A stretch of DNA of 62,508 nt, the filler included, from Collodictyon triciliatum (Eukaryota), in the NCBI GenBank assembly GCA_043381765.1. It is 6 parts of 6 records of this genome, joined end to end, with 100 filler letters (N's around TTAATTAATTAA, not from the genome) between each part and the next. Parts side by side here need not be neighbours in the genome. Positions count along the whole stretch, not along the records: positions 1 to 11,024 come from JBHJMP010002502.1; positions 11,125 to 22,137 come from JBHJMP010002503.1; positions 22,238 to 33,245 come from JBHJMP010002504.1; positions 33,346 to 44,349 come from JBHJMP010002505.1; positions 44,450 to 55,448 come from JBHJMP010002506.1; positions 55,549 to 62,508 come from JBHJMP010002565.1. One strand, 5' to 3'. Position numbers and translations under genes: made by a program. Of this stretch, positions 106 through 60,900 are shown piece by piece. Under the pieces are notes generated by a model that made no database searches, had not been told where the DNA came from, and saw only the letters and a list, made by a program, of their open reading frames with translations. Position 1 is the stretch's first letter, and each line of letters starts with the position of its first letter.

Positions 106-3100
106 GTTTCGTCGGCTTCTTGTTGACCCAAGTGACCCGGACCCTAATGCCAAAAAATACCACGCATCAGCACAACTACCTATATCTCGATTGATTGTTC
201 CCGGAGTTAGTTCCGTCGCACGTAATGAAATTATTTTAATAGCATTCTACATGAAATAAGTAATCCATTCGATGTACTGAATTGTAATTTTCTTTAATTT
301 GTTTTGTTTTGTCATGTTATTTCCCCCAAAAAAACAAAAACACAAAAAGTTCGTTGCCCAGTTAGTGCATACACAGGAACAGAACCTGCTGATGTGCCAT
401 TTGATATCCGCACATCTTCCCCAAAGGTTTATACCTGTATTTTTACACTATTATTTATTTTATTCTAAATACCCATATGACAAAAGCTTGCAATTCTACG
501 AATAATGCCACGGGTCATTTGTCAGATCTCGTTTGTGAATATATATTATGCTTTCCGCCTGTTTTTCTATCGGAAGGCTAAATACGGAAACGCCACCATA
601 TCAATAACCTAATAGCTGATATGAAGCCCTACATACATACAATAGCGTGTTATTTAACTTGTGGCAGTTTAAGATGCATATATCATTGTAATGTTGCTTT
701 CATATGTAAATTACAGAGCCAAGAGAAAGGTGCAAAGCAGAATGCTGCAGGAAAAGGTGCGCCACCGAAGAAGGCAGCAAAGAAAAAGAGACCTGAGCTG
801 GACCCCGAAGAAGGTTTCCCTCATCTCATTCTCTCCTATACATCATTAACGTTTACTTCATCCTGCTTCATTTGTTTGATTTGTTTGATTTGTTTGATTT
901 TTTATACTGACAGCAGAATCATAGATGAAATATAAACTTAAATTCATGATAACAATCTTAAAATTTAACTGTACATGTTTTCTGTGTGGTTGCATTCAAG
1001 CCGATTTATTGTTCGTTAATGAATCTATTGTCAGAAAAATGAGGTATACATACTAAATTACACTCCATGAAACAGAAGAGTCAATAAATCCATTTGAAGC
1101 AGCAGGCACGTATCTCCTTTTTAACGTATCGACGATGCGTCCATTTGTGGAGAAAATTAAGAAGAAAAGAGTGAGTGTACCTTATATGTATTCATATAGG
1201 GTTAAGAGCAACCACCGCCTACTCTATTTGTTCTTCATTTATTCATGCTGACGTATCAATAAACAATATTGACCAATGGAGCACTTTATGTCATTATCTT
1301 TCACATTGAATCACAAGTGCCATTTAAACACATACAAACAAATTCATCTGAGTTCATCAAGTAAGCTAGTTCATTTATCGTTCACCCAGAACCTTCTGAA
1401 ACCTGCTGATTTGATTCCCCCAAGAACAGCATATGGTCCATTAGAGCCTGTCCGAAGTGCAACAGAAGAATTTCAGCGGGGTTATTTTCATTTTCATTAT
1501 CCTCTTCTAACCATTTATATTGTCTTCGAGATGACCATATGTATATGATTTTGTCGTTTAATATGTTTTGGAATAATTTTCCTTTTTTGTAAGATAAATA
1601 CGATTATTTTCCCCAAAAATCCACTGTAAATCCTAATTTTACATAAAATTTCTCTGTTGACCCAGTCGTTCGAGGTATAGCTGAGTCGCTTGCTGATGAT
1701 TTTCATACGCTTTTCTCATCTGAATTTCCGAGCTTGGCCAAAGACCCATCAGCGCGAGAGAAGGTTAGTTTTTACCTCATCAAAATATATGAACTAAGCT
1801 TTTTCCTTTATTCGATTCAAAGTTATGAACTAAGCTTTATAAGAAGAATATTTCAGGGTTTTATTTATAATTAAAATGCGATGAATCTACCGTCGATGCA
1901 AAATTCACTGGGGGTTTTTTTTTCTAATTAATAACCTTACAATCTTTTAGTTTATATTCGAACTGAACTCAAGCGGGAAGTATCTTGTTTTCAAAGAGAA
2001 AATCCGCCGTGCGGTTGCTTCGGTCGTGAAAGAGGTTATTCCTACAACCATACCATTTTTGCCTAAACTGTTGCAAACATTAGATATCTAACTCTGCACA
2101 AATTGAAACATGATAGAGTCCATACCCATACACCTTGATTTAACATGTTTATTTCTTACAGAGATTTAGCAGGAAACCACATTCAACACGGAAAGATTTT
2201 GAGCACTTTTACAATAAGCTTTATGTTTATTTGATGGAGCAGATGCACTCTTCTATTAACAAAGTATTCCCCCTCTCCCAATTTTCATTGATTTTTGATT
2301 CATGAAAGAGTTCTTTGATAATCGGGTGATTACGAAGCAATAAATCTTTATACAAATGAAGTTTCCATATAAAAATAACTCACTACAAACTTTTTAAAAA
2401 TTTTGCACTCATTCTCAGATGATGGATGACTATGGTGCCGAAGGGGATGAAAACAGAGACGGAGAAAATCTCACACCACCAAATTCGACTGACGGACTAC
2501 TTCGCCTTTCTGAAGAGGCCGAGTTGGATGACAATCTTGAGTTAGCCGGGAAGCTACATTTGGAAAGAATAGCATTGAACAAAGACACGCCCTTGCTTTG
2601 GTTAGAACCCATAGTTTTCATGTTGTTCAGGAGTGCTCGATCACAAAATTTGAGTGAAATTATTGCGACATTTTAATCTCACCCGAGCCGTTTCATTCTC
2701 TTTTAATTGCATAATGAAGGTTCCAATATGGAGAGTTTCTTCTACGAACTAACGACAAGATGAAAGCTGAAGATGTTTTGAGGTTTCTCATTTAATGCTC
2801 ACTTTTAATGCATGCATGAAAAATACATTCGACAAAATTAAAGAAAAATCTGTTTGTAGACCTTTTTTTTTAAAAAACAAACAAACAAACAAACAAACAA
2901 ACAAACAAACAAACAAACAAACAAACAAACAAACAAACAAACAAACAAACAAACAAACAAACAAACAACCAACCAAATTTATTAAGGGAATGCATCGCAC
3001 GAGACAATAAATACGCACCGGCCCTCGTCGCTTATGGTTCATCCTTGTTATCGAGAAATAATCTCGATCACGCAGAAATATATTTAAGGGGTGCTGTTGA

Positions 3101-5498
3101 AGTCGAGCCAGCCAATCCATCATATTGGCACATCCTTGTAAGGGATTGACTAAAAATCGTGCACTCATAAATATAATTAGACAATCCTTTACGAAAAGAT
3201 GGACTATGACGAAGAATTAAAGAATGCACAAAAGCAAATGCGTCTGCTTCTTGCGGATGAAGCGGGTATCTAATTATTGTCTTGAATTTTTGGAGTCTCT
3301 CTTTTTTGTATTGTGTAGAAAAAAGTACTTACTGTGTATTTACTATTTACTATTTTTCCTTTTTCCTTTTTCCTTTTTCCTTTTTCCTTTTTCCTTTTTC
3401 CTTTTTCCTTTTTCCTTTTTCCTTTTTCCTTTTTCCTTTTTCCTTTTTCCTTTTTCCTTTTCCTTTTTTCCACTAAATCACTTTCACATTTTCAACTCAT
3501 AAATAGGCTCAGAGTCGAAGAAGCCTAGTGTTTTCTCAAGAACAGCGCGTCTTTTACTATCAATCAACAACACAGCCCTGCTTGAACCGATATTGTTGCA
3601 CGATGCATCGACATCTGGAAGGAGGTATTGTTTCATTGCTTTTCACACAACACATGATTTATTGTTAGCCTCACTCGGAGTGACATGTTTGCACATATTA
3701 ACATGATACTATATCTAATTTTTTTTTCATACGCCCCATGTAATATCCACGACCATAATTATCTTGGTAAACTTGCCAGAAAATAAGTGATATACTTAAA
3801 TATCGGATATTTTTAACATCCCTTCTTTTTCTTTTCATTCTTGTCTTTGTGACCAGCGCCGATGTATGTATAATGCTCGGGAAAATGTATGCTCTGAAGG
3901 AAGATTTCCAAAAGGCAGAGGAGTGCTTTCAGGAGGCTTCATTAGCATCCCCGAAAAATTTGGATGCGAGAATTGAATTAGGTTTGTTTGTAATAGTTTA
4001 TCAATTGGGTGACTCAGAAAATTACAGCTTTTTTTTTTAAAAAAAAAATGTATTGGGATAATTATATATGAGCGCACTATGAATTCTGTAACATGAGAAA
4101 AGGATTAGTTTTATGGGTATGTTTTCATGTTCAGGACATGTCCAGTTCAAACAACACAAATTTGAAGAAGCAAAATCATCATACGAGGCCATACTTTCGA
4201 TGGAGCAAAGTAAAGCATTCTTAAGTTTTCTACTGAATTTATTTGAAAGACAAGAAAATTCCAGTAAGATCGACCATTTCCCCCTTTCATAAAACTAATT
4301 AATATATATATACAATTTCAGCATGTTGATTCATTTTTCTTTTACTACAGATTGCCAGAGATTAGATGTTTTGAGCCGCTTAGCAAAGATATACTCTCTT
4401 CAAGGAATGTTTGAGGATGCTAAGGTGCGGGCTGTTATATTTTTTTCTTTCAGCTGGATAAAATGTAATTTCGATAAAGCTACCGGTTTGAAATGCGAAC
4501 AACTTCTGTTGACTTTTTTTTTCTCCTTGGGTGCAGGATTTGTTCCTGAACTGTTGTCAAATATCACCTACATCACTCTCCTGGCTGGGTGCCGGTGCCG
4601 CTTTGTATAAAATGGAACTGTATGACGACGCTGAAGTGGCTCTATCGGTACATGAATAGTCTTTTTTTTTTCACAGCTTTTTTCCCACGTGATATTGATT
4701 GTATATGATAGAGACACCCTAAATATCATCTTAAAATTCTACTTTTTTTTTTCTCGCAAAAGCATTCATATATGTAAGGATGATGTCTATAGTTGAACAG
4801 TCTCTGTCTGAAAATGAACTCTGCTTTGAAGACTTTTTTTTTTGATTTTTGCTGCTATACAGGAAGCAAACATTCTGGATAACCGTAATCCGGACACATG
4901 GTGTCTACTCACGCTATTAAGTCTCAAAACTGGTCGTGATTCGGAGGCCGACCGATGCATGCGTCAGGCGCTGCGCTTCAACCCATCCAACGCAGCATAT
5001 CTTCGGTATAACTTCATCAAAAGTACACAAGGCGTTAACGGCCTCGGGTTTCATGAAGCCACTTCGGCTAGTCTTGAAACGGCTTTTTTCATCTACAGGG
5101 AACTAGGATTTCTTTACAGCGCAAGAGGGAAACTGGAGGTATCTGAAACATGCCTTCGACGGTCGTTGGAGGTCGAAGACACAGACGAGACAAGGATTTC
5201 TCTGGCAGACGCACTTCTAACTAAAAATGATGCCGAACTTGTCGAAGAGGCAGCCATGCACTATGACTGGGTTTGACAAACATCTCAGCTGACATATAGC
5301 AATGAAGTCTCGTGAATATTTCAATATTTATTATTGTCCAAATCTTCTCTCCCATCTTGATTACACAGTCCCATCAAGGTATTCATTCATCAACATTACG
5401 ACTTTTTACATATTCAGGTGATTCAAAACTCTGAGAAAGAGGAGTTCAGGCAGCGAGCGCAAACCGGCATCCAAAGCATCTCTGCTCGAGTTAGATAG
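106..5498 (+). CDS. CFAP70: Cilia- and flagella-associated protein 70 (TTC18), multi-exon, 5' part missing
   Basis: Spliced exons give FELNSSGKYLVFKEKIRRAVASVVKE, LYVYLMEQMHSSINK, LLRLSEEAE, then TPRs (SWLGAGAALYKMELYDDAEVALS/EANILDNRNPDTWCLLTLLSL), matching the CFAP70 pattern. Stop TAG at 5496-5498. Confidence 0.85.
1788..1838 (-). mobile_element. Tiny poly(A) retro-insert, copy A
   Basis: TATGAACTAAGCTTT at 1788-1802 and 1824-1838 flanks the reverse complement of ACTTTGAATCGAATAAAGGAA; lies in a CFAP70 intron. Confidence 0.8.
2876..2968. repeat. (AAAC)n microsatellite, intronic
   Basis: Tetramer run. Confidence 0.95.
3353..3470. repeat. (TTTTTCC)n simple repeat, intronic
   Basis: Heptamer run; source of the spurious FSFFLFP ORFs. 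Confidence 0.9.
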
Positions 5499-6058
5499 GC
5501 GCTCATTGACTTCACTTATGGAGATGTGTGTCTGGAGTATTAATCACGAGAAGAACAAAAGCACGAGCCTGATGAGCGATACAATTCTTGGCATTATAAA
5601 ATGGCAATTTAAACACATCCTCTTGGTAGAAATTATCGTCTGTGCTTCTGTTTGAGCCGCAGTTTTTATTTCACGTTCAAAAGTAGGCATACCTGTGCTG
5701 GCAGTTTTGAAATATTGCTTTTGCATGTGGGGATATGTCCATCTGAATGTTTCGAAAGAACACGGCTGTGTCAGTTTGTATGCAATGAAATTATAGGATT
5801 TTGTGGTGAGTAAACGGGTTACAAAGAGAGTTCGTTATCCCAAGCAGAGCAGGCCAAAAAGAAATGACAACTTAGCTTTTATGAATTTTAATCATTGAAA
5901 TGCTGGCACTTGACAAGGCGGTGTGATGGCAACCCAGACACATGAGAAATATTGGTCGATAATCCCATCAATCTTGCTGACACAAACTGTGCCTCCGAAT
6001 AATTTTGAAATGAACAGATATGTTTAAAGAGGCAAGGAATTCACTGGAACAACGGATT

Positions 6059-6111
6059 ATCGATGCAACTAATCCTTTTTTTTTCCTTTTTTCGAATCGA
6101 TGCAACTAATC
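6059..6111 (-). mobile_element. Tiny poly(A) retro-insert, copy B
   Basis: 16-bp direct repeat ATCGATGCAACTAATC (6059-6074, 6096-6111) flanks the reverse complement of TCGAAAAAAGG(A)9G. Confidence 0.75.
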
Positions 6112-6640
6112 TAAATTATACACATGTTTCCTTGAACTCGGTCGCTTATTACTTTTTTCTCTGCTTGAATTTCGTTTCTTTGACATGTTCTTTACCATCA
6201 CCAAAGCCACCGGTGCAGTTTTGATGAAATATTCACCATGAAACCCGTTGAAGATTTATACAGATACTCAGAGATGGTGACTTCATTCGTTGAGGTTGGA
6301 TGGTTGCTTCTGTTCAGAAACTTTGACGCCCGATGTCATTGCCTCAGATGATGTGGATGATTATGAAACATTAAAGAGACGGCGTTTCATATGGCCTTCA
6401 GGAGTAAAACAAAAACCTTGCGTAACCCACGATACGAATAGTAAACGCAAAGGCCTGTCGACATTTGTGATTGAATCCGATACTTTGTCGATTGCTGTGG
6501 AGATTGGTATGAAACAGGCCACGAATATTTGATCATAAGATTTTCGTAGCTTACACTTGTATTTTTTCACCTTCGTTCAATTCAAAGTCAGCATACTCCT
6601 GAGTTTAATATTCTCATAGAACGGAGAAGTTTTCTAGGAA

Positions 6641-8557
6641 ATGAGAGTCCATCTATCAGACTTTGAATGTGAAGAGTCGGATGGTGCAATGAAGAAGGAG
6701 GCGTGGATACATCATTCACAGCTCCAAAAAGATTCTGCAATAGAAGATCTGGATGATTCAGGAGGCGGTGCTGTTGATCAAGTTGCTACTTCTCATTCTG
6801 GGGGAGAAAAAAAACAGGATGATGGAATAGAAAAGGCTCCCTCCGAGCAAAAAAAATCTATGGATGCACTGTCTTCTCAATTCTTAAAAGAAGAGGAACT
6901 AAGAAAAAATAATCGAGCTAGACTCTCATTGAAAAGAAATACGAAAGAGATCGACAAAAGAATAACAGTCATATCGAGCATTCTTGGTAATCAAAAGGCC
7001 TACAGCTTTATTATATCCGTCTTCAAAATGCCAGCGACCAAATATACCACGTGGATTGTCTGGACTGTGTGCCATACTTTATCTTTGTCGGTTTGTTTTC
7101 AAGAAAAGCTATTGCCAGGAGATGTTTACCTAGCATTACAAATATTTTCGCTATTATTTTTTTCGACGCATCATTTTATCTTCATTAGAATAGGAATACT
7201 TCGAGAGCTTGCAAGGTCATTCAGCTTTTGGTTTACTATTCTGAACTCCCTATCTTTCCATTTATGCCTTCTGCTTCTTTGGGGGCCAGATGATATTGCC
7301 ACATCATGTGCGATATCTCATTCGCTTTCTACCATATTGCTTATGCTTATATTCTACGATGCTCATGCTGCGAAGAAAAGCAAGGCCATGAAATTTACTT
7401 TAGTCATTGGAGTTATCACTCTATTGATAATATTAGCCATCCTTACCTTTGAATTGGTGACGTTTCGCAACGAAAACATACACGCGAAAGACGGTCTTGA
7501 GTTACTCAATGTGCGGTTGACTGCCATAGACAATTTGACTACGTTGATGGTTTACTCACTAAGAATTATCTTCAATCACATAATACAAAAAAAGACGACG
7601 ACTATCGCATTCTTGTCGCGGTACTATGAACTCGAGATTAGAGATTGTTCGCAATGTTTACAAATCGAATCTGAACAAGATGCAAGTAAAAACCAAAAAA
7701 AATTAGCTGTTCCTCCAGGCGATGAAAAGTTGAAAGATGATTCTTATCCCATAGAAGGGGCTCCTAACATTGGAGATAGAGAAACGAAACCTGGAAATAA
7801 TCATTCATTATCAAATAACGAAAAAAGTCAGAAGACGAGCAATAAGCTCACCGTAGGAATCATAGAGGATAAGATTATTGAATATGATTTACACGAGACG
7901 TTATATCACTCAATCATCAAGCCAAAGTATCCAAAGTTGGCTGCTCTTCTAAGTTCTAGATGGTATAATAATTCTGGGATTGTTATCTGTGTGATATCAC
8001 TATTATCAGGATTTCATCTTGCTATCGGAATAGAATCCCCACATGAATATGAGTGGGTCAATTTACATTTCACTTTGATAAGTATTGTATTCATGGTTGC
8101 GCAAATAAGCTGTACGTGTAACATTTTTATATTGAAGAAAACATTCCGTTCATTTGACTTCTGGTATGTTATTTATCTTCTTTCAAAGTTCTTTTTCTCT
8201 GCTGGGCTGCTTTGTAATTGGGACGGAAGAGTAATATTCTGGGTCTTTATTATCATATCAGTAATTTGGTATATGCTAGTAGACTCGTTCAGCCCAAAGC
8301 ACAGAAGGCTATCTTACATTTCGATGATAGGTTGCATCGTTATGGTGGCATTTTTTACCCTGAGCAAATTGAATATTGGAGATACATTTGCAAGGGATAG
8401 GTATATATACTTCAAAGAGATTCCCATAATGTCTTCACGAGTGACGTTTTCGACCTCTGCTCTTTCAACGGGCGTGTTCTCTTTCCGCTTTTTTTGGAGC
8501 TACATTCAGAATCCGAATCGATATTTATTCATAAACAAGAACGAGCAAGTGGTATAG
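6641..8557 (+). CDS. Intronless 638-aa multi-pass membrane protein with two related halves
   Basis: Long ORF with two hydrophobic blocks carrying related motifs (ILRELARSFSFWF, ILKKTFRSFDFWY) separated by a hydrophilic linker. Confidence 0.8.
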   Translation: MRVHLSDFECEESDGAMKKEAWIHHSQLQKDSAIEDLDDSGGGAVDQVATSHSGGEKKQDDGIEKAPSEQKKSMDALSSQFLKEEELRKNNRARLSLKRNTKEIDKRITVISSILGNQKAYSFIISVFKMPATKYTTWIVWTVCHTLSLSVCFQEKLLPGDVYLALQIFSLLFFSTHHFIFIRIGILRELARSFSFWFTILNSLSFHLCLLLLWGPDDIATSCAISHSLSTILLMLIFYDAHAAKKSKAMKFTLVIGVITLLIILAILTFELVTFRNENIHAKDGLELLNVRLTAIDNLTTLMVYSLRIIFNHIIQKKTTTIAFLSRYYELEIRDCSQCLQIESEQDASKNQKKLAVPPGDEKLKDDSYPIEGAPNIGDRETKPGNNHSLSNNEKSQKTSNKLTVGIIEDKIIEYDLHETLYHSIIKPKYPKLAALLSSRWYNNSGIVICVISLLSGFHLAIGIESPHEYEWVNLHFTLISIVFMVAQISCTCNIFILKKTFRSFDFWYVIYLLSKFFFSAGLLCNWDGRVIFWVFIIISVIWYMLVDSFSPKHRRLSYISMIGCIVMVAFFTLSKLNIGDTFARDRYIYFKEIPIMSSRVTFSTSALSTGVFSFRFFWSYIQNPNRYLFINKNEQVV

Positions 8558-10076: not shown

Positions 10077-10110
10077 GATTATGATTATGATTATGATTAT
10101 TATGATTATT
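9992..10110. repeat. (ATT)n microsatellite
   Basis: Trimer run ending in ATGATT variants. Confidence 0.95.
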
Positions 10111-11024
10111 CCTTTCAATACATGCGGGATGTGGTCGGCGGTTTATGTCGATCCTTTCTTTTTGCGTAGGAAGGACTGTATTGCAATTGAAGAGCGCTGG
10201 GTCTCTAGATGCTCCAAGCGCTTTATGTAAAAGGCGCGCTCTTGCAGTCCATTCTTTCATTTTTATTTTTATTTTTTGTATCGGTTACGAAGAAACCATG
10301 TAAAATCATTTATTCGACAACCAGCACAATATGCCATACGTAATCATGAGGCTTTCTTTTAATTGAAATGAAGAGAGCGGACGTTCATGCATTGTTTCAG
10401 AGTTATTCATGTATAATGGACTCTTCGTTGGACAGTAAATAAGTTGCAGGATTGGTTTTGTTCATCTTACACAATCGCATTAATCAAGTTGACTCGAATC
10501 TCTGCCCACAACTTGTCTTCCTTATGCTCACGCCACCATTGAACTTGGTGATGGTGCATTTAACACGCAGGTGAGTATCTATGGCTGCGTTTGCGTTTGA
10601 GCCCCATCAGATATATCAGACATCATCATTATTCCCTCACGCTTGCAAAGTAAAACGTTGCGCTTTCGGTGAAGCATTTCCCTGCAGCAAAGTTTGCCCG
10701 GCCGTTGCGGGATTTCGTGGGGTTGCGTTGGTTTGTGTAGCGAAGTCGGATGTTGTTTTCTTGCGTTTGTGGGACTGTTTGTGACGAGCTGACTCGGATC
10801 TTTTTTCTTTTCTTTTCTTCTTTTCTTCTTTTCATCTTTTCTTCTTTTCTTCTTTTCTCCTTTCCTTTCCTTTCCTTTCCTTTCCTTTCCTTTCCTTTCC
10901 TTTCCTTTCCTTTCCTTTCCTTTCCTTTCCTTTCTTTTCCTTTCTTTTCTTTTCTTTTCTTTTCTTTTCTTTTCTTTTCTTTTCTTTTCTTTTCTTTTCT
11001 TTTCTTTTCTTTTCTTTTCTTTTG

Positions 11025-22237: not shown

Positions 22238-24007
22238 GAAGCGAATCACTCTTTTGTCGCTAGTTTTCTTTCCTATTTCTATTTCTATTTCTATTTCTAT
22301 TTCTATTTCTATTTCTATTTCTATTTCTATTTCTATTTCTATTTCTATTTCTATTTCTATTTCTATTTATTTTCTTTCAATTTGTGCGAGATGATGGAGG
22401 TATTATCTTTGGTTGTCTTGTATCTTGTTCATCTGCCACAGCTGCGTCGATCACCTAATTTTTTTGTTTGTATATAAGAAAGCGATTGTTATTTTTGATA
22501 TGGTTGAAAATACTTTTGGTCATGACAGGACAGGGCCGTCCCTTGATTAACATAACCCTTTGAATCATGAATAATTTACTTTATTTTCATTTTATTTTAA
22601 AAAAATCGGTCGTGGTTGGTTCCTAGTACTTACAATGTGAAATTGATGATATCATTTTAAAATATACGAACCAAAGCCAACATCCCCACCGCCCTGCACA
22701 AAATTGAAAGGAAGAATAAAAAAATCATTTTAAAATATAGATAATTCATATGCACCAAGCTCGTAATTTTTTCTTTTTTCCCCTTTCTATCAAAATTTAT
22801 GTTCAATTAACCAAGCAGCCGATGCAAATTTGGACAATATGAAACATGCAAGCTCATTTTGTCTTATCGAATATGAATTAATTTATATTTTCCTATAATT
22901 TCGGTAGGTTTATAATGGACTGTAGGAAAGTAGTGAGCATTAGCTGTCTTTTGAACTATTATATATTTCAATTCCTTTTCAAATTCACGCTGTTATTTTG
23001 TGGTCTTATGTATATCCCGGGGGTATTCCCTAAAAAATTAATATTTTTTGTCAACATTTCTTTTGATAGAAAGAGAACAATAGGTTTTGGACGCAACCGT
23101 TTGCTACGATGTAAGGATGATTTGAATCATTACTCTGCATAGGAGCCTCTTCTTTCTACCAAAACAAAACACTAATCATATGAAAGACTAATCCATATTA
23201 TTTATAGGAAAGGACTCGTTTTAGATAACCAAAAATATTTCCCGAATGGATCTATCCCCATGAGACCTTATAAATGTAATTTTATTTAGGAAAGAAAAGA
23301 AATAAAAAAAACCGAACAAAAATACAAACTAAACTAAACATCGAAACAAACAAACAAACAAACAAACAAACAAACAAACAAACAAACAAACAAACAAACA
23401 AACAAACAAAGAGGGAGAAGAGAATATTTTTCTTTTATAGAATGCTTAATACCCAAAAAAACACGTAAACATTACATCTACATATCATATGGACTCATGT
23501 TGGTTTGTTAAATTTTCGTAGCCCAGCACATTACACGTCAAACCCCTAATTTGAAAAGGATGGCACATGAAGTGTTTACAATCTATTGATATCCTTGTTA
23601 TTAAATTGTAATTATAATGAAACAGTATCGATTAAAACTATTGCATATAGAGACGCAATCTGGAAATGTTGCTCTTTATGAGATGCTATAGAGACCTATT
23701 GCTAACTGGTAGAGTTATCGAATGAATCTATAAATTTTTTGAATCAGACTTTAAGTTAAATGATTCTAAGATCAGATAATCAAATCATCATGTTCATGTC
23801 ATTCTAAAATATCTAGATTTCTGCCGTCATAGTAAAATAAAACATGGGCTTTTCTTCACCAAGTAACCTAAGCATATTAAAAACGGAAATTAGTCATAAA
23901 GTCCTTTTTTTTAATCAAAGTTTGTACATTTAATAAGTAATCTATTTGAAACTTAATTTACTCATCATTTTATATACACTAATATGTACATTCTCTGAAT
24001 AAGGTAC

Positions 24008-27000
24008 ATGAGGATTATAATAGCTGTGATTTTGGCGATACAATTTTTACTGTCACTTTCATATAGCAGGTAAGAGCTTGCACTTATTACTTTCATTTTA
24101 ATACCCCTAAATATAAATTTACCATAAAGTGCGTGCAAGTATTCCACGCAAGATCTTCTCGAGATGGATAGAAACAAGGCGTTTCATATTTTGCTTCATT
24201 ACTACAAAGATAGTTGTTATGGGCTGAATTTCAAGGCAGAAAAATATGAAGGCTTCGAGAGTAATATTTTCGAGGCGAAAACGCAAATTCCTATACTCGA
24301 TAGTGATTGCAACACAATTTTTTCAAAAAATGAGGACATGTATCAAATATTGGCACCCTATAACGTTTCATCTAAGACAGCCATTGATGAAGAGGAAACT
24401 CCAAATATATTTATTAAGGAAAAGGAAACCACAAATTACTTTATCTCTGATGAATTGCACCCAGAGAGGAGAGATAATATTGATACAAGTCCTACAAATC
24501 ATGCCGACTACAAAGTTATGATGGAGTTATATGACCTTTTGGATGGAAAAAATTGGTTTCAAAATTATGGTTGGGATAGTGAGGATACACCCGTTTGCGA
24601 GTGGTATGGAGTTTCATGCAAAAAATGCTCAAAGTATGATACGGATTTACAGGTACCTTTTTTTTTAAAAAAAAAAAAAAGAAAAAGAGCTCAATTGTAT
24701 GTTAAAATTATAGTTTTGGCTTAATCTCTTAAAAATTTAGTATGGAAATTTCTCGGTCAGGTGCTTGGAGCTATCTGGAAATAATCTCATCGGCAACATT
24801 TCTGAAGTGTCTCGTGCTATTAAGGGATTTACAAACTTGACTGTGGTTGACTTCAGTAATAACAAGATATATGGAAAGTTGCATGACTTTGACCTACCTA
24901 AGATGATACTTTTGAATTTGTATGTAAACGAGTTGACAGGAACTGTTCCTGATTTTCAAGGAATGCCAAAAATTAGGCATTTTGAAATCGATGGAAACCC
25001 CTTGGAAGGTACAGTCCCAGATTTTTCAGGCATGCAGAATTTAGAATACTTCTGGGTTGGTGCCACGACAAAGATTTACGGTGAAGCTCTGTCACACAAC
25101 AAAAAGAATCAAACAAAAAAAAATCAAACAAAAATATTCACACAAAAATAATCAAATAAATGAACAAAAAATATTGTTTTAATTTCCATCCGAACCTATT
25201 CAGGAACTCTCTACAACTTTTGCTGCTTACCAAACGTTACAGTGTTTGGGATTTATGGAACCAGCATTAGTGGTATATTCTCCTATTTATTCAATATGAT
25301 ATTTTTTTATCTATTCGATTCAATTTTTTGAATATGATATAATTGATTCGAAGAACAAAATTTTCTAGGTACAATTCCAAACTTTACCAAGTTAAAAAGA
25401 ATCACTCGAATAAGCTTCTACGGAAACAAACTTAATGGTAAACAAGCGCCTTTCCCTTTTCTGAAATTTTCTCCTTTTTGTATTCTTTCTTTCAATTTTG
25501 TGCAGGATGGTGGAGGTGTTGGCTTTTCTGAAATTTTCTTAAAAGTGATATTCTCATTTTGCGCAAAATGAACTCTATTTCTTTTGAAACCATAATTACA
25601 GGAACAATACCTGATTTTGAGCATATAAATACATTGAGGATATTCGACATCACAAATAATGACATTTCAGGTATAATTTCCTACATGAAAACACGATTTG
25701 TGATTATTTCGGTAATAATCAGTTGTAATCTACAGGTACCATTCCCAACTTCAAGAATCTCGGTAATCTGAATTCGATCAGTTTGTCAGGAAATAGATTG
25801 CAAGGTGCACATTTTCATTTGACCATACATTTTGGGAAAAAAATAGATAATATCTTCAACACTTTGTCTGTAAGGACCTAATCGAAGAAAAATGCAGGAG
25901 AAATCCCTCAATTTGACAACTTAAGAAACCTCAAAAAATTTGCATCAGTTAGAAACTCTCATGAAGGCAAAATTCCGAGTTTTGAAAAGTGCCCCCTTAT
26001 TGAAAACATCGTTATTTTCATGAATAATTTATCTGGTTCTTTGCCAAGATACTTACCCCAAAGTGTTCTGAAGCTTGACTTTAGTGAAAATAACATATCT
26101 GGCCCTATTCCAGACACTTGGAACATCTCGTCTATTCAATATATTGACCTTTCAAAGAACAAGCTGAACGGCACAATACCTCCAAGCTTTTCAAAATTTT
26201 ACAGTCTAAGAACTTTGATTTTATCTGGAAACAAGTTTACTGGTCAATTCCCAAAAACCTTTTGGAACCTCCCAAGCTTATCATACATAGACATAAGTTC
26301 CAACCGATTTTCTGGAAATCTGGGAGCCTTTATAGCCCCTCCGTTCTTGGAAAAGAATACAAATTATTCTTATGAAACTCTCATTCTTGATGACAACCAG
26401 ATAAGTGGCGCTCTGAATAGCTGGATTTTTACTTACGTCAGGAATGTCAAGTTTTTAAGCATCCGAAACAACAACATAAATCGACTCGGAGACATCTTTG
26501 TTTTATCAGAATGGAGGAGACTAGACTTATCTGGTAATCCGATATATGGAGCCATACCCGAATCATACAACCGATTCTCTAAATTGGAGTTCCTAGGGCT
26601 AAAAAATACCACCTTGAACCACGGAAACATGAAATTACTCCCATCATTTATGGAGGCTACAAATTCGTATACCTTACAAGACTCTACAAATTCTTTTTTG
26701 TGTCCGTTAGTAATATCGAGAGCCAACGCCGTGGAATTAAGTGTTTATTTAGATCCAGAATACTACAATCACACATTATGTCGATGTCTTCCAAACTACT
26801 TTGGCTTTGGGAATCAATGTCAACTCTGCTCCTCCATGTGTGACTGCAGTAATGGCAAAGTTTTACGAAAATGTTTCGCATCACCAAACCCGTATGGTAT
26901 GACGGCGATTGTCCCATGTCCAAGACCTGAATCTTGCATTACAATAATGCCTGAAATATCTTCAGACACTACGGAGCCGCCTAGGACAGTTTCAACATGC

Positions 27001-38634: not shown

Positions 38635-38719
38635 AAGTTGTGCGAGTAAGTCCTTTGTATGGCATAACCTCGCTGCACTTTGAATCGAATAAAGGAAAAA
38701 AAAAGTTGTGCGAGTAAGT
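38635..38719 (+). mobile_element. Tiny poly(A) retro-insert, copy D (longest clean copy, 51 nt)
   Basis: 17-bp direct repeat AAGTTGTGCGAGTAAGT (38635-38651, 38703-38719) flanks CCTTTGTATGGCATAACCTCGCTGCACTTTGAATCGAATAAAGG(A)n. Confidence 0.88.
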
Positions 38720-39165: not shown

Positions 39166-42100
39166 ATGGATTTGTACAATATCAAAGACGAGGCGATCAC
39201 CTCACGGAATGCAACCAAGGTCGTCTCGAAAAAGTAAGATTTTGATTCTTATATCTTTTATTTTTGAAATGCTATTGTGAATTAAGAATAAAAAGCCAAA
39301 CTGAAGATATGAGGCGCTGTGTGTAAACAAGCAAAGAAACAATTCAATTGTATACTTTTTTAAAAAGGGGATTTAATCCATGGTTAAACCCTTGACTTTG
39401 TCTCTTATAAAACTCAGTATGTGGCAAGCCAGAATATTTCTTACCTTTTATCATGAAATACATTATTAGCAAGAATGAGATGAAGTTCATTCCAAGTCAC
39501 ATTCAAAAGACCATGCAACAATTCGAGGTGAAGAAATTTATGACAAGAGCTAATACACAAATGACATTTTTATTTGTCCTTGCCATATTGTTAAACGCGA
39601 TTGGAAACCTGTAAATGAAGAGAAAATCGCCAATGTGAGAGCGAGTCAACATAATAATGAGGTGATTTTTTTTATCAGAACAATGAATTGGACGATGGCA
39701 GTCAGGAACAACCAGAAACGATTATTCCTCCTTCGAATAGATTTCATGAGTTTCTAATATATTTTGTTGAGGTAATATCGCATATTTACTCTCCTTTTCC
39801 AGGAACTGCAGCATTGCGCGAGCCTATATCTTCACTTATCAACATTTTTTTGATATTTTTCTTTCGTTTTTATCAATCGCTTTACATTATGTACTTAGTA
39901 TGCTTACAAACTCATTGAATTCCAGACAAAAGGATTCTCCAATTTTATAATGGGCTGCATTTTGGTGAATTCGATTCTACTCGCCCTCGAGGTAGACCCC
40001 AGCACCACAGAAACTGCAGCACAAGTGTACTCTGTAAGAGATAAATACGAACAAACTACAAACAAACTACAAACATCATAATACAAACATCATAATACAA
40101 ACATCATAATACAAACATCATAATACAAACATCATAATACAAACATCATAATACAAACATCATAATACAAACATCATAATACAAACATCATAATACAAAC
40201 ATCATAATACAAACATCATAATACAAACATCATAATACAAACATCATAATACAAACACACATTTAAACATACATTTAAACATACGTATAAAGAAATTTAT
40301 TAAGAAAATGAAAGAAAATGCGACAAAACTTTACTAAAGCAAGTATATACGATTTTGCACACCACATTTGAAAAAGGATGTCATTCTAAAATCCTTTGTT
40401 TAAATTTATTCTTCAGTTAATGGACGTAGCTTTTCTCGTAATTTATACTATAGAATTGGTTTTGAAGAATTACGTCGATTTCAAGGCAATTATTTTACCA
40501 AATAATCATACTTTATCCAGATAAAAATGATATGTCAGTTATGATATTATGTTTCCTCGTATTCGATTCAATGGAAGGAAGGGGGGGTTTATATTTTTTT
40601 TTTATCACTGTTATGATACTATGTTTAATATTATCTTATGTATTCCAATTGTTGATAATGATTAAGGCACATATATTCAATGACTAATTTCCCACTTAGT
40701 ATCATATCAATCCAATCGGCCCTTTCGTCCTTTCTCAAAGAAAAAATAAAGCGATAAAAACAAAACAAAAATCTCGCAATCCTAATTTAGAACCGAATGG
40801 TATAGGGGTATTGGTCCAACAACTTCAACAGATTTGACGCGCTCGTTCTATTCTTTTCATATATCACACAAGTCAACGTGTTTAGTTCGCAAGGAAATTT
40901 CAGTGTTTTTCGTATTCTTAGAGGTAAACATCGAATGTTCATTCTTCTGTTAAAAGAGTATCGACTAATCATTTGTATATTCATATGGTAAACCCTGTTT
41001 TCCTTTCGTTGAATGAAATACAATTTTCTATTTACTAATTTTACGATATCTCTCACGTTCCTCCGCCGTTAATTAAAGCATTTCGAGCTTTCCGTGCGTT
41101 CAGAGGAGTTTCTTTCATTCGACCTCTTCAAGTAAGATGGCTATCAATTCCCTCTTCACTACGCACACACACGTATGAATAAGTGATTGCAGATGCGCGA
41201 TATGATGACACTTTCCATCGAATATGATTTCTCCATCTAAGAAGCATACCCAATTCTATGTATAGGTCATTGTCACAGCACTCATTAAAACTTTTGGCAG
41301 CATCATCAATCTAATTATGCTCATGTTGCTATTTATTTTTGTCTTTGCAATAATTGGCATCAACTTCTTCGGGAGCAATGAGCTGACATTTGATGATTGG
41401 GGAACTTTGGGGAATGCTATGTACACTCTTTTCATTTATGTCACGGTATGTAATCTCATACATAAAAGCACTCTTCTAGTTCAAAACTGTCACTTGCATT
41501 TTTCTTTAGCAAAGAAAGTAAAATAAAGCCCATACAAAAACCAGTCAAAGGGAACACGCGAACTCTTATATTAAATACCGATAATGCAGGCAGACAATTG
41601 GAGCGACATACAGTCAAGGATGGATGAAGCATATGGACTTGGAAGTCGTTTCTACAGTGTTCTCTTTATATTCATAGGAAACCTTATATTTACAAATCTT
41701 TTCATTGGAATCATTATTCAGGTTTGCAGGGCACAGTCACGAAGTAGTACTAGATTTTTTACAATTTAATTCCTCATTTTGATCATATTTTTATACACTT
41801 AGTAACTCTTTCTTTTTTGGGTCGTATGTCACATTTGTAGAATCTGGATGAAGCAACTGAAGAGGATAAGCGAATCCAAAAGCTGAAGAGGCAAAAAGTA
41901 GTCGCCAGAAAGAAAGCTTTCATTGAGGAGAGACAAAAGCGTGACTATGAGAAACTATTGGCCAGAAAAGTAATTCATCTTTTGGCTCACAATTCTTCTT
42001 GTTCTTGTTCTTGGTCTTGTTCTTGTTCTTGTTCTTATTCTTGTTCTTCTCTATACGTATTAGTGAACCTAATTCAGTCTGCGATGAAATAAAAAAAAAG

Positions 42101-42911: not shown

Positions 42912-42984
42912 TGCTTCCTAGCGGAATCGAACCACTGATCTCTCCCTTACTAGGGGAGCGCCTTGCCGTCTGGGCCAAGGAAGC
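42912..42984 (-). tRNA. tRNA-Thr(AGT)
   Basis: Cloverleaf GCTTCCT..AGGAAGC-A; anticodon arm CTCCC-CTAGTAA-GGGAG; GGTTCGATTCC T-arm; oligo-T Pol III terminator just downstream. Confidence 0.95.
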
Positions 42985-43360
42985 TTCCTGACCATACAAG
43001 GATTTGTAAGTCTCTCTATATTACCAATACCGTTTTCTTTTGTGCTCTGTTGGGTTATCTTTGAGCTGGACTTCGGCGATGCGAAAAACAGCCGGCTGCG
43101 GTGTCTGACAACAAAATACTTATCTGGCATCAGTTGCCAAAGCAACAACCATGCAAAAAAGCTATGCGAGCTAATACTTAACATTCCGACTTTGACAAGA
43201 GGAAACTCATAGTCAATATATAGATAACAAGAAAGGTAAGTGTCCACACGGTCTCATATTCACATAGCTGAGGTATTTTTTTCCCACTAAATTAAGCTAA
43301 AATGGTGCAATGAAGATTTCATGTCTAACAGTTTGTATTTTGCGGGTTCGTTCTTTAATT

Positions 43361-43432
43361 TTCTTCTGGTTCTTGGCATAACCTCGCTACACTTTGAATC
43401 GAATAAAGGAAAAAAAAAATTCTTTTGGTTCT
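43361..43432 (+). mobile_element. Tiny poly(A) retro-insert, copy E
   Basis: TGGCATAACCTCGCTACACTTTGAATCGAATAAAGG(A)10 has one mismatch to copy D; flanked by TTCTTYTGGTTCT (43361-43373, 43420-43432). Confidence 0.82.
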
Positions 43433-43479
43433 GTGATGAAGCGGGAAATTTGAATATTTTCATGGTTTGTAAATCATAT

Positions 43480-43820
43480 CTAAGAGTGTGGTTGTGATTG
43501 TGTTGTGTGATGGCCGTGATGTGGGCACTCCGGGTGATGGTGATGGTGCCCTGCATCCCTTCCAGCAGGTGAACTGGGCCCACTATCACTATCTTCACTT
43601 CCGCTGCTTTCCGTATCGCTTTCTCCAAAAGCACGTTGCTTGTGAAATATGCAGCATCCTAAAAATATCGGCAGTATTTATACACTTGCTGCTGTTGAAT
43701 CGATTCATTTTTTAAAATATGTATATATTTCTATGTGAAGGTTATACTTTTGGACTTCTTTTTGTTCATGTGTTCATTATCGACAGTATCTTCAGTCCAC
43801 TGTATCCGGTTTGTTGAGAC
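43480..43820 (-). CDS. PPP1R11: PP1 inhibitor-3 (PPP1R11/Ypi1), last two exons; upstream exons unresolved
   Basis: Exons 43820-43748 and 43658-43480 read [39 protein letters not shown], the family signature with its RVxW motif. Confidence 0.9.
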
Positions 43821-44349
43821 CTATTCCAGTGTGTTTTATATACATAACTAATTTAAAAGAAGAGCACGAGTGATTGGGATGTTAGTGGAGCGTGGGGAGA
43901 AAAGAGAGAAGCCAAGAGTATGGGATGCACCACTACCTTAACAATAAATCCTTTATGAAAGATGTTGAAAGAAAGAAGTTCATATACCAAACCTTCTTTT
44001 TCTTTTCCTTTGGGTGGTGATGCTGCGTCTCAGGATCGATGGTTTGATGGAAGTTGGCTGGAGGGGGGAACAACAATGTCTGTTGCGCGGGTTGTGTGAT
44101 TTGATAGTAGACGCGTTGAAACAAAGGTCAGGGGTCATACAACCAAAAAGTGGATAAAAACCAGAAAAAAAAGAGAGAGAAAAAAGAGAGAGAAAAAAAA
44201 GAGAGAAAAAAGAGAGAAAAAAGAGAGAAAAAAAAGAGAGAAAAAAAAGAGAGAAAAAAAAGAGAGAAAAAAAAGAGAGAAAAAAAAGAGAGAAAAAAAA
44301 AAAGAGAAAAAAAAAGAGAGAAAAAAAAGAGAGAAAAAAAAGAGAAAAA

Positions 44350-53406: not shown

Positions 53407-53467
53407 GAGGGCCACCTTCTGCCATTTTTTCCCTTTCTTCGATTCAAAGAGGGCCACTTTCTGCTAT
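53407..53467 (-). mobile_element. Tiny poly(A) retro-insert, copy F
   Basis: 19-bp repeat GAGGGCCACYTTCTGCYAT (53407-53425, 53449-53467) flanks TTTTTCCCTTTCTTCGATTCAAA. Confidence 0.72.
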
Positions 53468-55347: not shown

Positions 55348-55365
55348 TCTTCTTTTCTTTTCTTT

Positions 55366-55448
<83 letters not shown>

Positions 55449-55548: not shown

Positions 55549-55683
55549 TTGATTTTGATTTTGATTTTGATTTTGATTTTGATTTTGATTTTGATTTTGA
55601 TTTTGATTTTGATTTTGATTTTGATTTTGATTTTGATTTTGATTATTTTTTTTTTGATCGCGAATGTCACATCCATTTCACAA

Positions 55684-57999: not shown

Positions 58000-60900
58000 T
58001 CATACAGATTGAAATCGGATAGTAGATGTGGTTATGGTTTTTGCAAATCCCGCTGAAAGTTCTTGAACAGTGGGGAGCGAATCACCAGAGAAAACCCTGA
58101 AGGAAAGTGACATCAGAATAGGTGTATTTTTTTTTCCTTTATTCGATTCAAATCAGAATAGGTGTATATAATAGATGAGGCAATGGATTTATTCTTGTTA
58201 GTTATACAAATATGCATTCTTATTGAAATAGAACAGTCAACTAAGTGGGCATGCGTGTGAAAAATTACTACTTAGATTTTAGGCAGCATATTCGTTTTGA
58301 AAATTGTGATACAAAAAGGAGGAGGAAAAAAAGTTACCCGCTGTACTTTTCAAGAATTCGGGATGCGAGTTGTTGTCCGTCTTGGTCAAAAAGGGACGGA
58401 GTACCTTTAGGAGGATAGAAAATAAATATGCCATTAGTAGTATAGTTAAACTTGTAATAAAGGCATATATATATGTATATGTAATGAATGTGAGATAAAA
58501 ATGAAAATAAATCTTGGGAAAACATTTGTGTCACCTCTAGAGAAGAAAGCTAAATCAATCCAAAGCTGCATAATAGGGCCAGACCGAAAGAGTTTTGCCG
58601 GGTCAAATATGGTTGGGNNNNNNNNNNNNNNNNNNNNNNNNNNNNNNNNNNNNNNNNNNNNNNNNNNNNNNNNNNNNNNNNNNNNNNNNNNNNNNNNNNN
58701 NNNNNNNNNNNNNNNNNNNNNNNNNNNNNNNNNNNNNNNNNNNNNNNNNNNNNNNNNNNNNNNNNNNNNNNNNNNNNNNNNNNNNNNNNNNNNNNNNNNN
58801 NNNNNNNNNNNNNNNNNNNNNNNNNNNNNNNNNNNNNNNNNNNNNNNNNNNNNNNNNNNNNNNNNNNNNNNNNNNNNNNNNNNNNNNNNNNNNNNNNNNN
58901 NNNNNNNNNNNNNNNNNNNNNNNNNNNNNNNNNNNNNNNNNNNNNNNNNNNNNNNNNNNNNNNNNNNNNNNNNNNNNNNNNNNNNNNNNNNNNNNNNNNN
59001 NNNNNNNNNNNNNNNNNNNNNNNNNNNNNNNNNNNNNNNNNNNNNNNNNNNNNNNNNNNNNNNNNNNNNNNNNNNNNNNNNNNNNNNNNNCCTCCTCCTC
59101 CTCTTCTCCCCTCTCCTTCCTTGCCATCACATGAAAGAGAGAATACTATATGCATAAAAATCACCCGGGTGATGCAGTCGTCTCCAAACGTGGCTCGGAC
59201 AGACCCGGAAGCTTTCATTTCAACAAAGGATTGCGCGAATTTTCCTGCAAACATTTGAAACCAATTAAATGAATATATCTGAAAGGACTTCGTATAGGTT
59301 ATATTAAAATTACATCCTTCAAGCCAGGATGCTTACAGTAGATAGATACGCAAAGAAGGAAAATAATACCGAATAAAATTGGTTGTTTTTGAATGATTTT
59401 TTGGAATTCAAAGACTGGTCGTGCAAACATGTCCTGCATTATCAAACGCAGACATAAGTCAAAATATATCGATTAGCTTTAAATTGTGGTGCTTAGGTAT
59501 AAACCAAAATAGGTGCTACTATGGCAGACTTTTAATTTAAACCTTTAATTCATTCTCCACCCAGTTAGTGGCATCCCCAGTCAAATAAAATAAATTGGCA
59601 ATGAATCCAGATACCTTGAATTAAGAAATACAGGTTATATATGAAAATCGATGTACTAAATTTCAAGGTCCCTCATACCTTCTTCATCTTCTCAATTATT
59701 AAGAGTAAATATGATGTACTAAGCAAACTTGTGTATCATTCATTGCTTCCAGGGAGAACTCTTGTAATCTACATAAATACCAATCGACTATGGATGACAC
59801 ATTGCTTACGATAGATTGGTATATCTAAAAGAGAAAATATCTGTCATTTGCATATTAAACTTTCATAGCCTAATTCCAAGACTTTTAACATGAATAACAT
59901 ACTAATGTAAAAATAAAAATAAAAAGAAGCATGAACAGATCACAAACCAATAAGTTTGAAAGCGGTTTTATATCCTTGAGGAATGTAGCGATAGTGGTAA
60001 GAAGAAATCGGGTGCTTTCTGTCACTTTGACGATAGATTGTCTGGGGCTTGACTCCTCAATTTTTAAATGACACTCTTTAGCATGCCATATTTCATCTTC
60101 AACCTACATAATTTCAAGGGTTAAGGCAATCACGTTGTTGCAAGTACTGTTTGGATTAACTTAAATAGTATATGGTTATAAATTGCCATCTGGAGATTAT
60201 TAAGGGTAATTCATTTGAGGAATTAAATGGTAATCCGTTAATTTTTTCTCACTTGCTTCGACAATGTCGACTTTATTCCGTTCATATACTGTGATATAGC
60301 TATTTGTACGCAAAATTTTATAAATGCATGTGAAGTAAATAGGTCTTTAAAGTGAAAATTCAAATATTCATAAGAAAATATTAGTATTAAATTCTTTTCT
60401 TTAATTAATTCAAATTACTTTAGATTGAATAAAATATACTAATGCAAGTGGCAATATCTATTGTCCCATGATGTATTTTAAATAGCCCCACAACATACCT
60501 TCACACAAGCTTGGACTGAATATTGAGTCCAGATTGTATGTGATATCTAGGCCATACTGCTGGAGCTAATACCAAAGCGGGAGAAAAAATTTTTTAAAAA
60601 AAACTTTAAAAATATCATAATGCTGAAAACTTGTATGGTAATAAGACCTTTGCATATAAATAAAACCAGCGGATGTAGATGCATGATATTTGTGATAAGA
60701 ATCATAAAAAAAAAAAAAAAAGAAAGTAATAAACCTTTTCGCAATGTACTTTCGGAATAGACGTGCATCTGGCCATTAACTCAAAGTCGTCTGAATGGAA
60801 TACTTGACGGTTGAAAGAATATCCGAATTCTTGAACTTCACGAACAACCCATACAACAAAAGCTATACAGATATTTCTCAATATTAAATTGATATTTCTG

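What the first reader, a model, noticed from the sequence alone, without database searches (positions are those of the whole stretch)
1788..58167. Dense family of ultra-short poly(A) insertions, each with its own target-site duplication
Seen: eight sites (1788, 6059, 25293, 38635, 40538, 43361, 53407, 58112) across five unlinked contigs share the 3' end ...GGCATAACCTCGCTRCACTTTGAATCGAATAAAGG(A)n. They occur in both orientations, are variably 5'-truncated (about 20-55 nt), and each is flanked by a different 10-19 bp direct repeat. All lie outside recognised exons. TSDs range from perfect to 2 mismatches. Known: a fixed 3' end, AATAAA plus an A-tail, 5' truncation and variable-length TSDs are hallmarks of target-primed reverse transcription by non-LTR retrotransposons. 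Inference: an element active over a long period whose reverse transcriptase usually stops within about 50 nt, or a very small non-autonomous partner. About one copy per 8 kb here suggests a large family that repeat finders would miss. No parent element is in the window.
Basis: partly seen in the sequence, partly recalled or inferred. Interest (0 to 1): 0.8.

Follow-up and report, generated by a model that had tools for sequence, protein, structure and literature searches.

The report
Eighteen-base LINE-tail insertions
The tiny A-tailed insertions are real: they are the last few bases of an L1-like jumping gene, pasted thousands of times into this protist genome by a known mechanism, and the unusual part is that most copies of one family stop about 18 bases in, just beyond a 16-base tail that a small partner element also carries.

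Summary
All eight sites are real and repeat-flanked. Seven are 5'-truncated 3' tips of an L1-type LINE (endonuclease, RT, zinc finger) found elsewhere in the genome. The eighth (40538) is a truncated copy of a ~275-nt ORF-less, SINE-like element that shares only the LINE's last 16 nt. Exact genome counts: last 12 nt 3,153, last 16 nt 2,268, next 16 nt 499. Of 94 copies read, 63 stop 17-20 nt from the tail, 31 at 18. A sister LINE also leaves stubs (41 of 43 at most 51 nt) but lacks that peak (4 of 39). Duplications are mostly 15-18 bp, and half the joints are blunt. Best reading: ordinary target-primed reverse transcription, aborted at the edge of the 3' motif that ORF2p binds (inferred). An RNA pre-cut at -18 is the main rival. 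No empty site or intact parent was seen. The scan noted this family before on other DNA of the same genome. New variant of a known kind.

The parts
1788..1838 (-). Family A tip: 19 nt + A5 (insert 1803-1823) between perfect 15-bp repeats 1788-1802 and 1824-1838
6059..6111 (-). Family A (or C) tip: 11 nt with one change + A9 (insert 6075-6095) between perfect 16-bp repeats 6059-6074 and 6096-6111
25293..25340 (-). Decayed family A (or C) tip, about 16 nt + A7, between 10-bp repeats 25293-25302 and 25331-25340 (13 bp with one mismatch); weakest of the eight
38635..38719 (+). Family A tip: 44 nt (38652-38695) + A9 between perfect 17-bp repeats 38635-38651 and 38703-38719
40538..40626 (-). Truncated copy (about 54 nt) of the SINE-like element C, which shares only the last 16 nt with LINE A; 17-bp repeats 40538-40554 and 40610-40626, one mismatch; in an intron of an ion-channel gene; spanned by contigs of runs X1 and X4
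43361..43432 (+). Family A tip: 36 nt (43374-43409) + A10 between 13-bp repeats 43361-43373 and 43420-43432, one mismatch; antisense at the 3' end of a spliced Ypi1/inhibitor-3-like gene
53407..53467 (-). Family A tip: 17-18 nt with one change + G + A-tail (insert 53426-53448) between 19-bp repeats with two mismatches
58112..58167 (-). Family A tip: 16-17 nt + A9 (insert 58128-58151) between perfect 16-bp repeats 58112-58127 and 58152-58167
22651..22739 (+). Not in the finding: stub of sister LINE family B, 51 nt (22667-22717) + A-tail between perfect 16-bp repeats
   Evidence: the family B tip is linked to sequence homologous to ORF2 of L103/L104
25456..25538 (-). Not in the finding: stub of family B, about 40 nt + decayed tail between perfect 16-bp repeats 25456-25471 and 25523-25538

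Best explanation
The inserts are dead-on-arrival copies of the 3' tip of an L1-type LINE (family A, at least 5.9 kb: about 2 kb upstream region, ORF2 with APE endonuclease, RT and zinc finger, about 93-nt 3' UTR, A-tail).

Shown from sequence: parent, 5' truncation, 15-18-bp duplications, a T/A-type junction, and a stop peak at 18 nt.

From established L1 biology: ORF2p nicks one strand, primes on the A-tail, nicks the other strand about 16 bp away, and an early switch to second-strand synthesis or repair fixes a truncated copy.

Inferred: ORF2p of family A holds its RNA by the last 16-18 nt. Once it has copied through that motif it loses its grip, so about 4 in 10 reactions that reach base 18 end there. 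The same motif lets the ORF-less element C borrow the machinery. Identity as LINE tips: about 0.95. The gate mechanism: about 0.6.
For: Longer copies extend into an ORF whose end matches zf-RVT; one contig (C401) links tip and RT. The endonuclease is in family A, and endonuclease, RT and zinc finger lie on one contig (L109). Best solved relative is human L1 ORF2p (E 2e-32, against R2 3e-19). Counts fall from 2,268 to 499 between adjacent 16-mers. Stop rate is 0.38 at 18 nt against 0.028 per nt at 23-50 nt. Mismatch-bearing copies repeat the peak: 8 of 11 at 18-19. Sister family B (70% RT identity) has the same duplication size but only 4 of 39 stops at 17-20 against 63 of 94 (Fisher P 9e-10), so the gate follows the family, not a fixed cDNA length. 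Element C matches the LINE's 3' 1.6 kb only over the last 16 nt and is repeat-flanked and truncated like it. Early top-strand nicking as a source of truncation: PMC7617806, passages. Shared SINE/LINE tails mark 3'-end recognition: PMC3747384, passages.
Against: No binding or reverse-transcription data. No intact parent was seen among the fetched copies. The predicted hairpin over the last 18 nt is weak (z about 0; pairing probabilities mostly 0.1-0.6). R2 RT is reported to be highly processive through structured, protein-bound RNA (PMC13000458, passages). Human L1 is described as recognising poly(A) rather than sequence. Element C could have captured an existing stub, which would explain the shared 16 nt without saying where ORF2p binds. 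No empty site was seen. 27 of 94 copies had no repeat called (7 at contig ends or gaps). Long copies are under-counted in a fragmented assembly.
Confidence: 0.58

Rival explanations
1. The template is already short: LINE RNA is cut about 18 nt before the tail (host nuclease, small-RNA slicing, or exonuclease trimming up to bound ORF2p), and the RT runs off its end. Antisense stubs in host 3' UTRs could feed such cutting.
For: Sharp peak, with 10 of 21 blunt joints at exactly 18 and 1-3 extra bases at 11 joints, as run-off would give. The copy at 43361 lies antisense at the end of a spliced transcript, and the tip is abundant in RNA contigs.
Against: Lengths form a continuum from 4 nt to over 2 kb. 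Family B shows no comparable peak. The 11 extra-base joints show no G excess (2 single G, plus GT and TAG). Contigs cannot show RNA ends, so this is untested.
Confidence: 0.22
2. A helix in the 3' UTR whose base lies at about -20 to -21 blocks the RT, independent of where ORF2p binds.
For: Folding of real copies pairs bases -20 to -25 with probabilities mostly 0.4-0.9 in most runs, and the A/G variant at -21 keeps pairing possible.
Against: Folding energies equal those of shuffles (z 0.07 to 0.28). R2 RT is reported not to be slowed by secondary structure. Family B stops only loosely follow its predicted hairpins.
Confidence: 0.1
3. The peak comes from microhomology: the T-rich stretch at -15 to -18 pairs with AT-rich target overhangs and captures the cDNA early.
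For: Mean microhomology 1.19 nt against 0.72 by simulation (P 0.003); 7 joints with 3 nt or more against 2.4 expected (P 0.01).
Against: 21 of 42 joints are blunt (53% expected by chance), and 10 of those 21 still start at 18.
Confidence: 0.05
4. A stand-alone micro-retroposon of about 26 nt with its own master copy.
For: Near-fixed 5' start and thousands of copies.
Against: Copies of 19-700 nt continue base for base into the LINE 3' UTR and ORF2. There is no room for an internal promoter (inference). The real ORF-less partner is about 275 nt.
Confidence: 0.04
5. Assembly or library-adapter artefact.
For: Fragmented assembly; no empty allele seen.
Against: The motif is the end of an ORF-bearing element. 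Copies and repeats carry independent mutations. Contigs of run X1 and of a freshwater metagenome of another study (X4, depth 2) span both repeats at 40538. No adapter library was searched.
Confidence: 0.01

Closest known systems
5'-truncated L1 (LINE-1) copies made by TPRT (human L1; PMC2912911 passages, PMC7617806 passages)
   Same: APE endonuclease + RT + zinc finger ORF2, A-tail, fixed 3' end, duplications peaking near 14-17 bp, T/A-type nick, modest 5' microhomology, some extra bases.
   Different: Most copies are under 50 nt with a one-to-two-base peak at 18. Duplications stay full-size, whereas short ones are over-represented in truncated human L1. The target is looser than TT/AAAA (TT/AA in 14 of 54). 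Tails are 7-10 A in 44 of 52. The human survey began at 50 bp, so it could not see such copies.
Severely truncated (<50 bp) CR1 insertions in Anolis carolinensis (PMC5389967, passages and section 15)
   Same: Large numbers of LINE 3' tips under 50 bp that escape standard searches; early truncation also described for lizard L1.
   Different: Different clade. The passages read describe a gradual fall of truncation with distance and mention no fixed stop point.
SINE/LINE pairs with a shared 3' tail ('stringent' recognition; Chlamydomonas SINEX-3/L1-1 and others, PMC3747384 passages)
   Same: An ORF-less element (C) ends in the LINE's 3' sequence plus A-tail and is inserted with the same duplication size.
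   Different: The shared tail is 16 nt, against about 80 nt in the Chlamydomonas pair. No tRNA-derived head was detected, and no conserved stem-loop was shown.

Membership tests
L1-type (APE) non-LTR retrotransposon, parent family A | N-terminal APE-type endonuclease in ORF2 | tested here: met
   PF03372 E 6e-10 and PF14529 E 2e-8 on family A frame L133; same domains in family B
L1-type (APE) non-LTR retrotransposon, parent family A | RT closest to L1 ORF2p | tested here: met
   RVT_1; human L1 ORF2p E 2e-32 against R2 3e-19; a quick, unfinished tree groups A and B with plant L1-type proteins, support 99, without curated clade references
L1-type (APE) non-LTR retrotransposon, parent family A | C-terminal cysteine/histidine zinc finger | tested here: met
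   zf-RVT PF13966 E 1.6e-7, above cut-off, on L047
L1-type (APE) non-LTR retrotransposon, parent family A | ORF1 upstream of ORF2 | tested here: inconclusive
   About 2 kb of shared upstream sequence with broken frames; no Pfam hit on one 200-aa frame; 5' end not defined
L1-type (APE) non-LTR retrotransposon, parent family A | Intact, currently active copy | tested here: inconclusive
   All fetched long copies are broken, gapped or cut by contig ends; 3' UTR sequence occurs in RNA contigs
5'-truncated TPRT product | Fixed 3' end, A-tail, variable 5' end | tested here: met
   94 copies, matched length 17 to at least 700 nt; down to 11 nt and one of 4 nt
5'-truncated TPRT product | Target-site duplication of about 7-20 bp unique to each site | tested here: met
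   67 of 94 with a called repeat; among 54 clean ones of 114, 43 are 15-18 bp after removing microhomology
5'-truncated TPRT product | Endonuclease-type target consensus | tested here: met
   T at -1 in 65%, C in 22%; A at +1 in 93% (partly forced by overlap with the tail); AT-rich flank; looser than TT/AAAA
5'-truncated TPRT product | Empty site with one repeat copy in another allele or strain | tested here: inconclusive
   Two sites, four runs, contigs only: 40538 is filled in X1 and X4; 43361 is not bridged
SINE (the 18-nt insert itself) | Own 5' head with an internal promoter, distinct from the LINE | tested here: not met
   The insert is wholly LINE 3' UTR sequence, and longer copies continue into ORF2
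SINE (element C) | Short, ORF-less, defined 5' start, LINE-derived tail, duplications | tested here: met
   9 of 9 aligned copies are 272-288 nt from a common start; 2 have repeats at both ends (12 and 16 bp, 1-2 mismatches); truncated copies have 11-17-bp repeats; the tail match is 16 nt. 5 of the 9 sit in a larger repeat and are not independent
SINE (element C) | Head derived from tRNA, 5S or 7SL with Pol III boxes | tested here: inconclusive
   A- and B-box-like words by eye against recalled consensus; no hit with ARAGORN or Rfam on two copies

The most novel reading that the evidence does not exclude
This L1-type LINE recognises its RNA through a 16-18-nt terminal motif, several times shorter than the ~80-nt shared SINE/LINE tail in the review read. 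Most reactions abort at the motif's edge, so its commonest product is a ~26-nt copy of its own recognition signal. Thousands of these stubs put a ready-made mobilisation tag behind host transcripts; element C would be a SINE born that way. The genome would then record, at single-base resolution, the step from initiation to elongation in TPRT.
Probability: 0.3. Interest if true: 0.72.

Novelty: new variant of a known kind. Interest (0 to 1): 0.47.

Why it matters
Why LINE copies are 5'-truncated is an open question, and here one family stops at one position in about four of ten reactions that reach it while its sister does not, a natural comparison that can be tested by swapping 3' ends. The 16-nt tail shared with an ORF-less partner points to a minimal cis-element, of use for understanding SINE birth and for retrotransposon-based insertion tools. 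Practically, an estimated 6,000 A/C tips (extrapolated from 23 in 278 kb) plus over 1,100 B tips of 20-60 bp would fall below usual repeat and structural-variant size limits (inference), so LINE activity in such genomes is under-counted. The basic mechanism is known, and sub-50-bp LINE tips have a precedent in lizard CR1.

Tried and rejected
General repeat finder: swamped by microsatellites and did not list the family among the families shown. A 5' pattern taken from site 38635 included two target bases and found only 12 places. The 1,227-codon frame at C5561 is largely an N gap and belongs to family B. Mismatch counts were too low because of the search mode and were replaced; its hazard, Fisher and microhomology figures do not depend on that. 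A motif-free scan for duplications around pure A-tails found no convincing A-only insert. A fixed total cDNA length was not supported: insert and tail length correlate weakly (rho -0.21, P 0.13) and family B differs. A strong terminal hairpin was not supported. A tRNA origin of element C was not detected. Element C as the 3' UTR of a third LINE was rejected: the shared upstream DNA in 5 of 9 copies encodes an opposite-strand, Fanzor-like frame and gave no match to LINE proteins. The careful tree did not finish. More DNA around the repeat that carries element C could not be read, so its ends are unknown. Ten literature searches; those aimed at fixed-point or ultra-short truncation or at minimal shared tails listed 0-3 papers each. 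In the passages read of the three listed papers that were opened, only PMC5389967 mentioned sub-50-bp copies and none a fixed stop; the other listed papers were seen as listings only. The library lacks most subscription papers, and no supplements were read. bioRxiv 10.1101/2024.12.14.628481 (passages) added nothing.
Full report
Setting. The window is six pieces of about 7-11 kb joined by spacers. It comes from a fragmented 75.4-Mb eukaryotic assembly, G000, of 14,576 contigs. It has short introns, many microsatellites, and genes such as histone H3, an LRR protein, an ion channel and a Ypi1-like phosphatase inhibitor. Related sequence occurs in freshwater metagenomes. 'Protist' is my inference from these features.

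Observation. All 8 of 8 sites are present as described: an A-tailed insert between site-specific direct repeats of 10-19 bp with 0-2 mismatches. The last 17 nt plus three A have 1,313 exact matches in the genome and the reversed control none. Exact counts for the last 11 nt plus a purine are 3,153 (control 19), for the last 16 nt 2,268 (control 0), and for offsets 17-32 only 499 (control 1). A 20-mer about 100 nt upstream has 243 matches with up to one mismatch. I also took the first 10 kb or less of 35 contigs without regard to the motif (C2600-2619 and C2700-2715; C2707 was left out because it had a LINE endonuclease hit). These 277,864 bases held 23 tips with up to three mismatches and the control none. 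That is 1 per 12 kb, or about 6,000 by extrapolation, so the window is somewhat denser than average.

Parent. Longer copies extend through a 3' UTR of about 93 nt into a reading frame that matches zf-RVT. On contig C401 the tip and an RT frame lie 1.8-2.2 kb apart, in sequence shared with other copies. L109 carries endonuclease, RT, zinc finger and most of the 3' UTR on one contig, though its last 25 or so bases have diverged. About 2 kb more is shared upstream, so the element is at least 5.9 kb. The RT is closest to human L1 ORF2p among solved structures. A quick tree of 83 rows places it with plant L1-type proteins, without curated clade references. The closest database protein to the sister family's ORF2 is 34% identical. 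No intact copy was seen. A sister family B has 70% RT identity and a different 3' end, with 1,183 exact tips (control 36).

Lengths. I read 94 distinct exact hits, drawn from the first 100 listed. Of these, 63 match the parent over 17-20 nt, 31 over exactly 18, and 81 over 50 nt or less; 7 run into a contig end or gap. A repeat was called for 67, including a few in microsatellites. The search word itself demands 17 nt, so I read 20 of the 28 hits of the 12-nt search that lack the full 16-mer: 9 are 11-15 nt long, and 11 are 17-22 nt with a mismatch, 8 of them 18-19 nt. Copies under 11 nt are not counted; one of 4 nt was seen. The chance of stopping is 0.14, 0.38, 0.28 and 0.14 at 17-20 nt, and 0.028 per base at 23-50 nt. 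Family B is also short (41 of 43 at most 51 nt) but broad, with 4 of 39 at 17-20 (Fisher P 9e-10). Long copies break contigs and may be selected against, so their share is a lower bound. Neither effect explains a peak at 18 rather than 25 (inference).

Junctions. Among 54 clean repeats of 114 family A copies, 43 are 15-18 bp; in family B, 19 of 21 clean ones of 43. The junction is T or C followed by A, in AT-rich DNA. Tails are 7-10 A in 44 of 52. Tails shorten with age in human Alu (PMC12633430, passages), so the original length is unknown. Of 42 joints without extra bases, 21 are blunt, and microhomology is modestly above chance (1.19 against 0.72, P 0.003). Ten of the 21 blunt joints start at 18, so microhomology does not create the peak.

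A partner that shares the core. Site 40538 has a pyrimidine-rich sequence before the last 16 nt, also seen in other loci. It belongs to an element C of 272-288 nt with a common start in 9 of 9 aligned copies (27 matches to its head in the genome). Two full-length copies and several truncated ones (30-80 nt) are flanked by 11-17-bp repeats. Against the 3' 1.6 kb of LINE A its only significant match is the last 16 nt. No tRNA head was detected. Five of the nine copies lie in a larger repeat with a weakly Fanzor-like frame and are not independent insertions. Tips of 16 nt or less cannot be assigned to A or C, but the 18-nt peak carries A's bases.

Other data. Four runs were laid on 40300-44050, all as contigs. 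X1 and X2 are spliced and so RNA. They place 40538 in an intron and end a minus-strand Ypi1-like transcript at the edge of the 43361 copy. An X1 contig and a single low-depth contig of metagenome X4 span both repeats at 40538 with small differences. X1 and X2 may come from the source study, so only X4 is clearly independent. No empty site was seen.

Mechanism. TPRT by an L1-type ORF2p explains every shown feature. [quoted passage not shown] For the peak I favour loss of grip at the edge of a 16-18-nt recognition motif, for two reasons: the peak is family-specific, and that motif is exactly what the ORF-less partner shares. Shared tails are the usual sign of 3'-end recognition (PMC3747384, passages). 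This step is inferred. Against it, R2 RT is reported to strip bound RNA and stay processive (PMC13000458, passages), the hairpin is weak, and C may simply have captured a stub. A template pre-cut at -18 remains the main rival.

Comparison and novelty. Truncated L1 copies with 14-16-bp repeats and some microhomology are well known, though that survey began at 50 bp (PMC2912911, passages). Many CR1 insertions under 50 bp were inferred in a lizard (PMC5389967, passages and section 15). My searches turned up no account of a single-position stop in a library that lacks most subscription journals; most listed papers were seen as listings only. Earlier notes of this scan on other DNA of the same genome reached the same LINE-tip reading. 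I consulted them after my own length analysis, and they are not independent support. The few lines shown of each did not mention the contrast with family B or the 16-nt tail shared with element C. Verdict: real, a new variant of a known kind, interest 0.47.

Noticed in passing
window 22651-22739 (+) and 25456-25538 (-); genome-wide 1,183 exact tips: A second L1-type family (B) leaves short stubs with 14-18-bp duplications; 7 of 43 read carry a variant with a C-run head and are cut within or just before that run.
   Followed up: yes
L305:1502-1775, L311, L104:7875-8155 (-); window 40538: Element C, about 275 nt, ORF-less, with A/B-box-like words by eye, shares only the last 16 nt with LINE A; a candidate SINE with an unusually short LINE-derived tail.
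   Followed up: partly
L305-L308 and L310, 1.5 kb upstream of element C; also L063, L158, L192: A repeated element (82-87% identity among five copies) with a broken opposite-strand frame weakly like Fanzor1 proteins (PDB 9cf0 E 0.03, 9cer E 0.04); it carries a copy of element C as a passenger. Ends unknown.
   Followed up: partly
window 10105-10120 (-); L057, L162, L289, L291: LINE tips whose tail runs straight into a microsatellite; tails may seed some of the many A-rich microsatellites of this genome, or the endonuclease may favour them.
   Followed up: no
L040:590-650, L184:3155-3200, L067:1500-1800, L001:1400-1525: Stacked insertions: a second tip inserted at or beside the same target as the first, including an A tip next to a B tip with a shared repeat.
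   Followed up: no
L054, L059, L105-L109, L113: Many long family A copies have large internal deletions joining RT to the zinc-finger region or 3' UTR; real deletions or assembly mis-joins were not told apart.
   Followed up: no
first 100 hits; L038, L040, L046, L167: About a third of tips have extra G bases between the element end and the A-tail (up to five extra).
   Followed up: no
L171:9541-9609, L023:390-480, L070:90-150, L015: L171 is a family B stub; the other three are A-tailed, repeat-flanked short inserts with other 3' ends, possibly further LINE families or tiny retrocopies of host RNA.
   Followed up: no
L110:3423-4679 and 5388-5999: An integrase-core (rve) frame and a neighbouring unnamed frame on the other strand; a possible DNA mobile element.
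   Followed up: no
G000 C844:40892-41530, C1003:1157-1888, C4166, C4856: More distant LINE-like frames (29-38% identity to the queries), one in an open frame of 2,013 codons; further families not read.
   Followed up: no
window 6570-6585 (-), 29387-29402 (-), 28307-28321 (+), 27962-27977 (-): Weak, decayed tip-like matches with no flanking repeat tested.
   Followed up: no
window 40330-42830 (+) and 43420-44110 (-): A spliced ion-transport (Ion_trans) gene and a Ypi1/inhibitor-3-like gene, with introns defined by RNA contigs; the intron holding insert 40538 is the longest of those seen (320 nt against 89-203).
   Followed up: partly
window 6638-8557 (+): An uninterrupted 639-codon frame with many hydrophobic stretches and no Pfam hit.
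   Followed up: no
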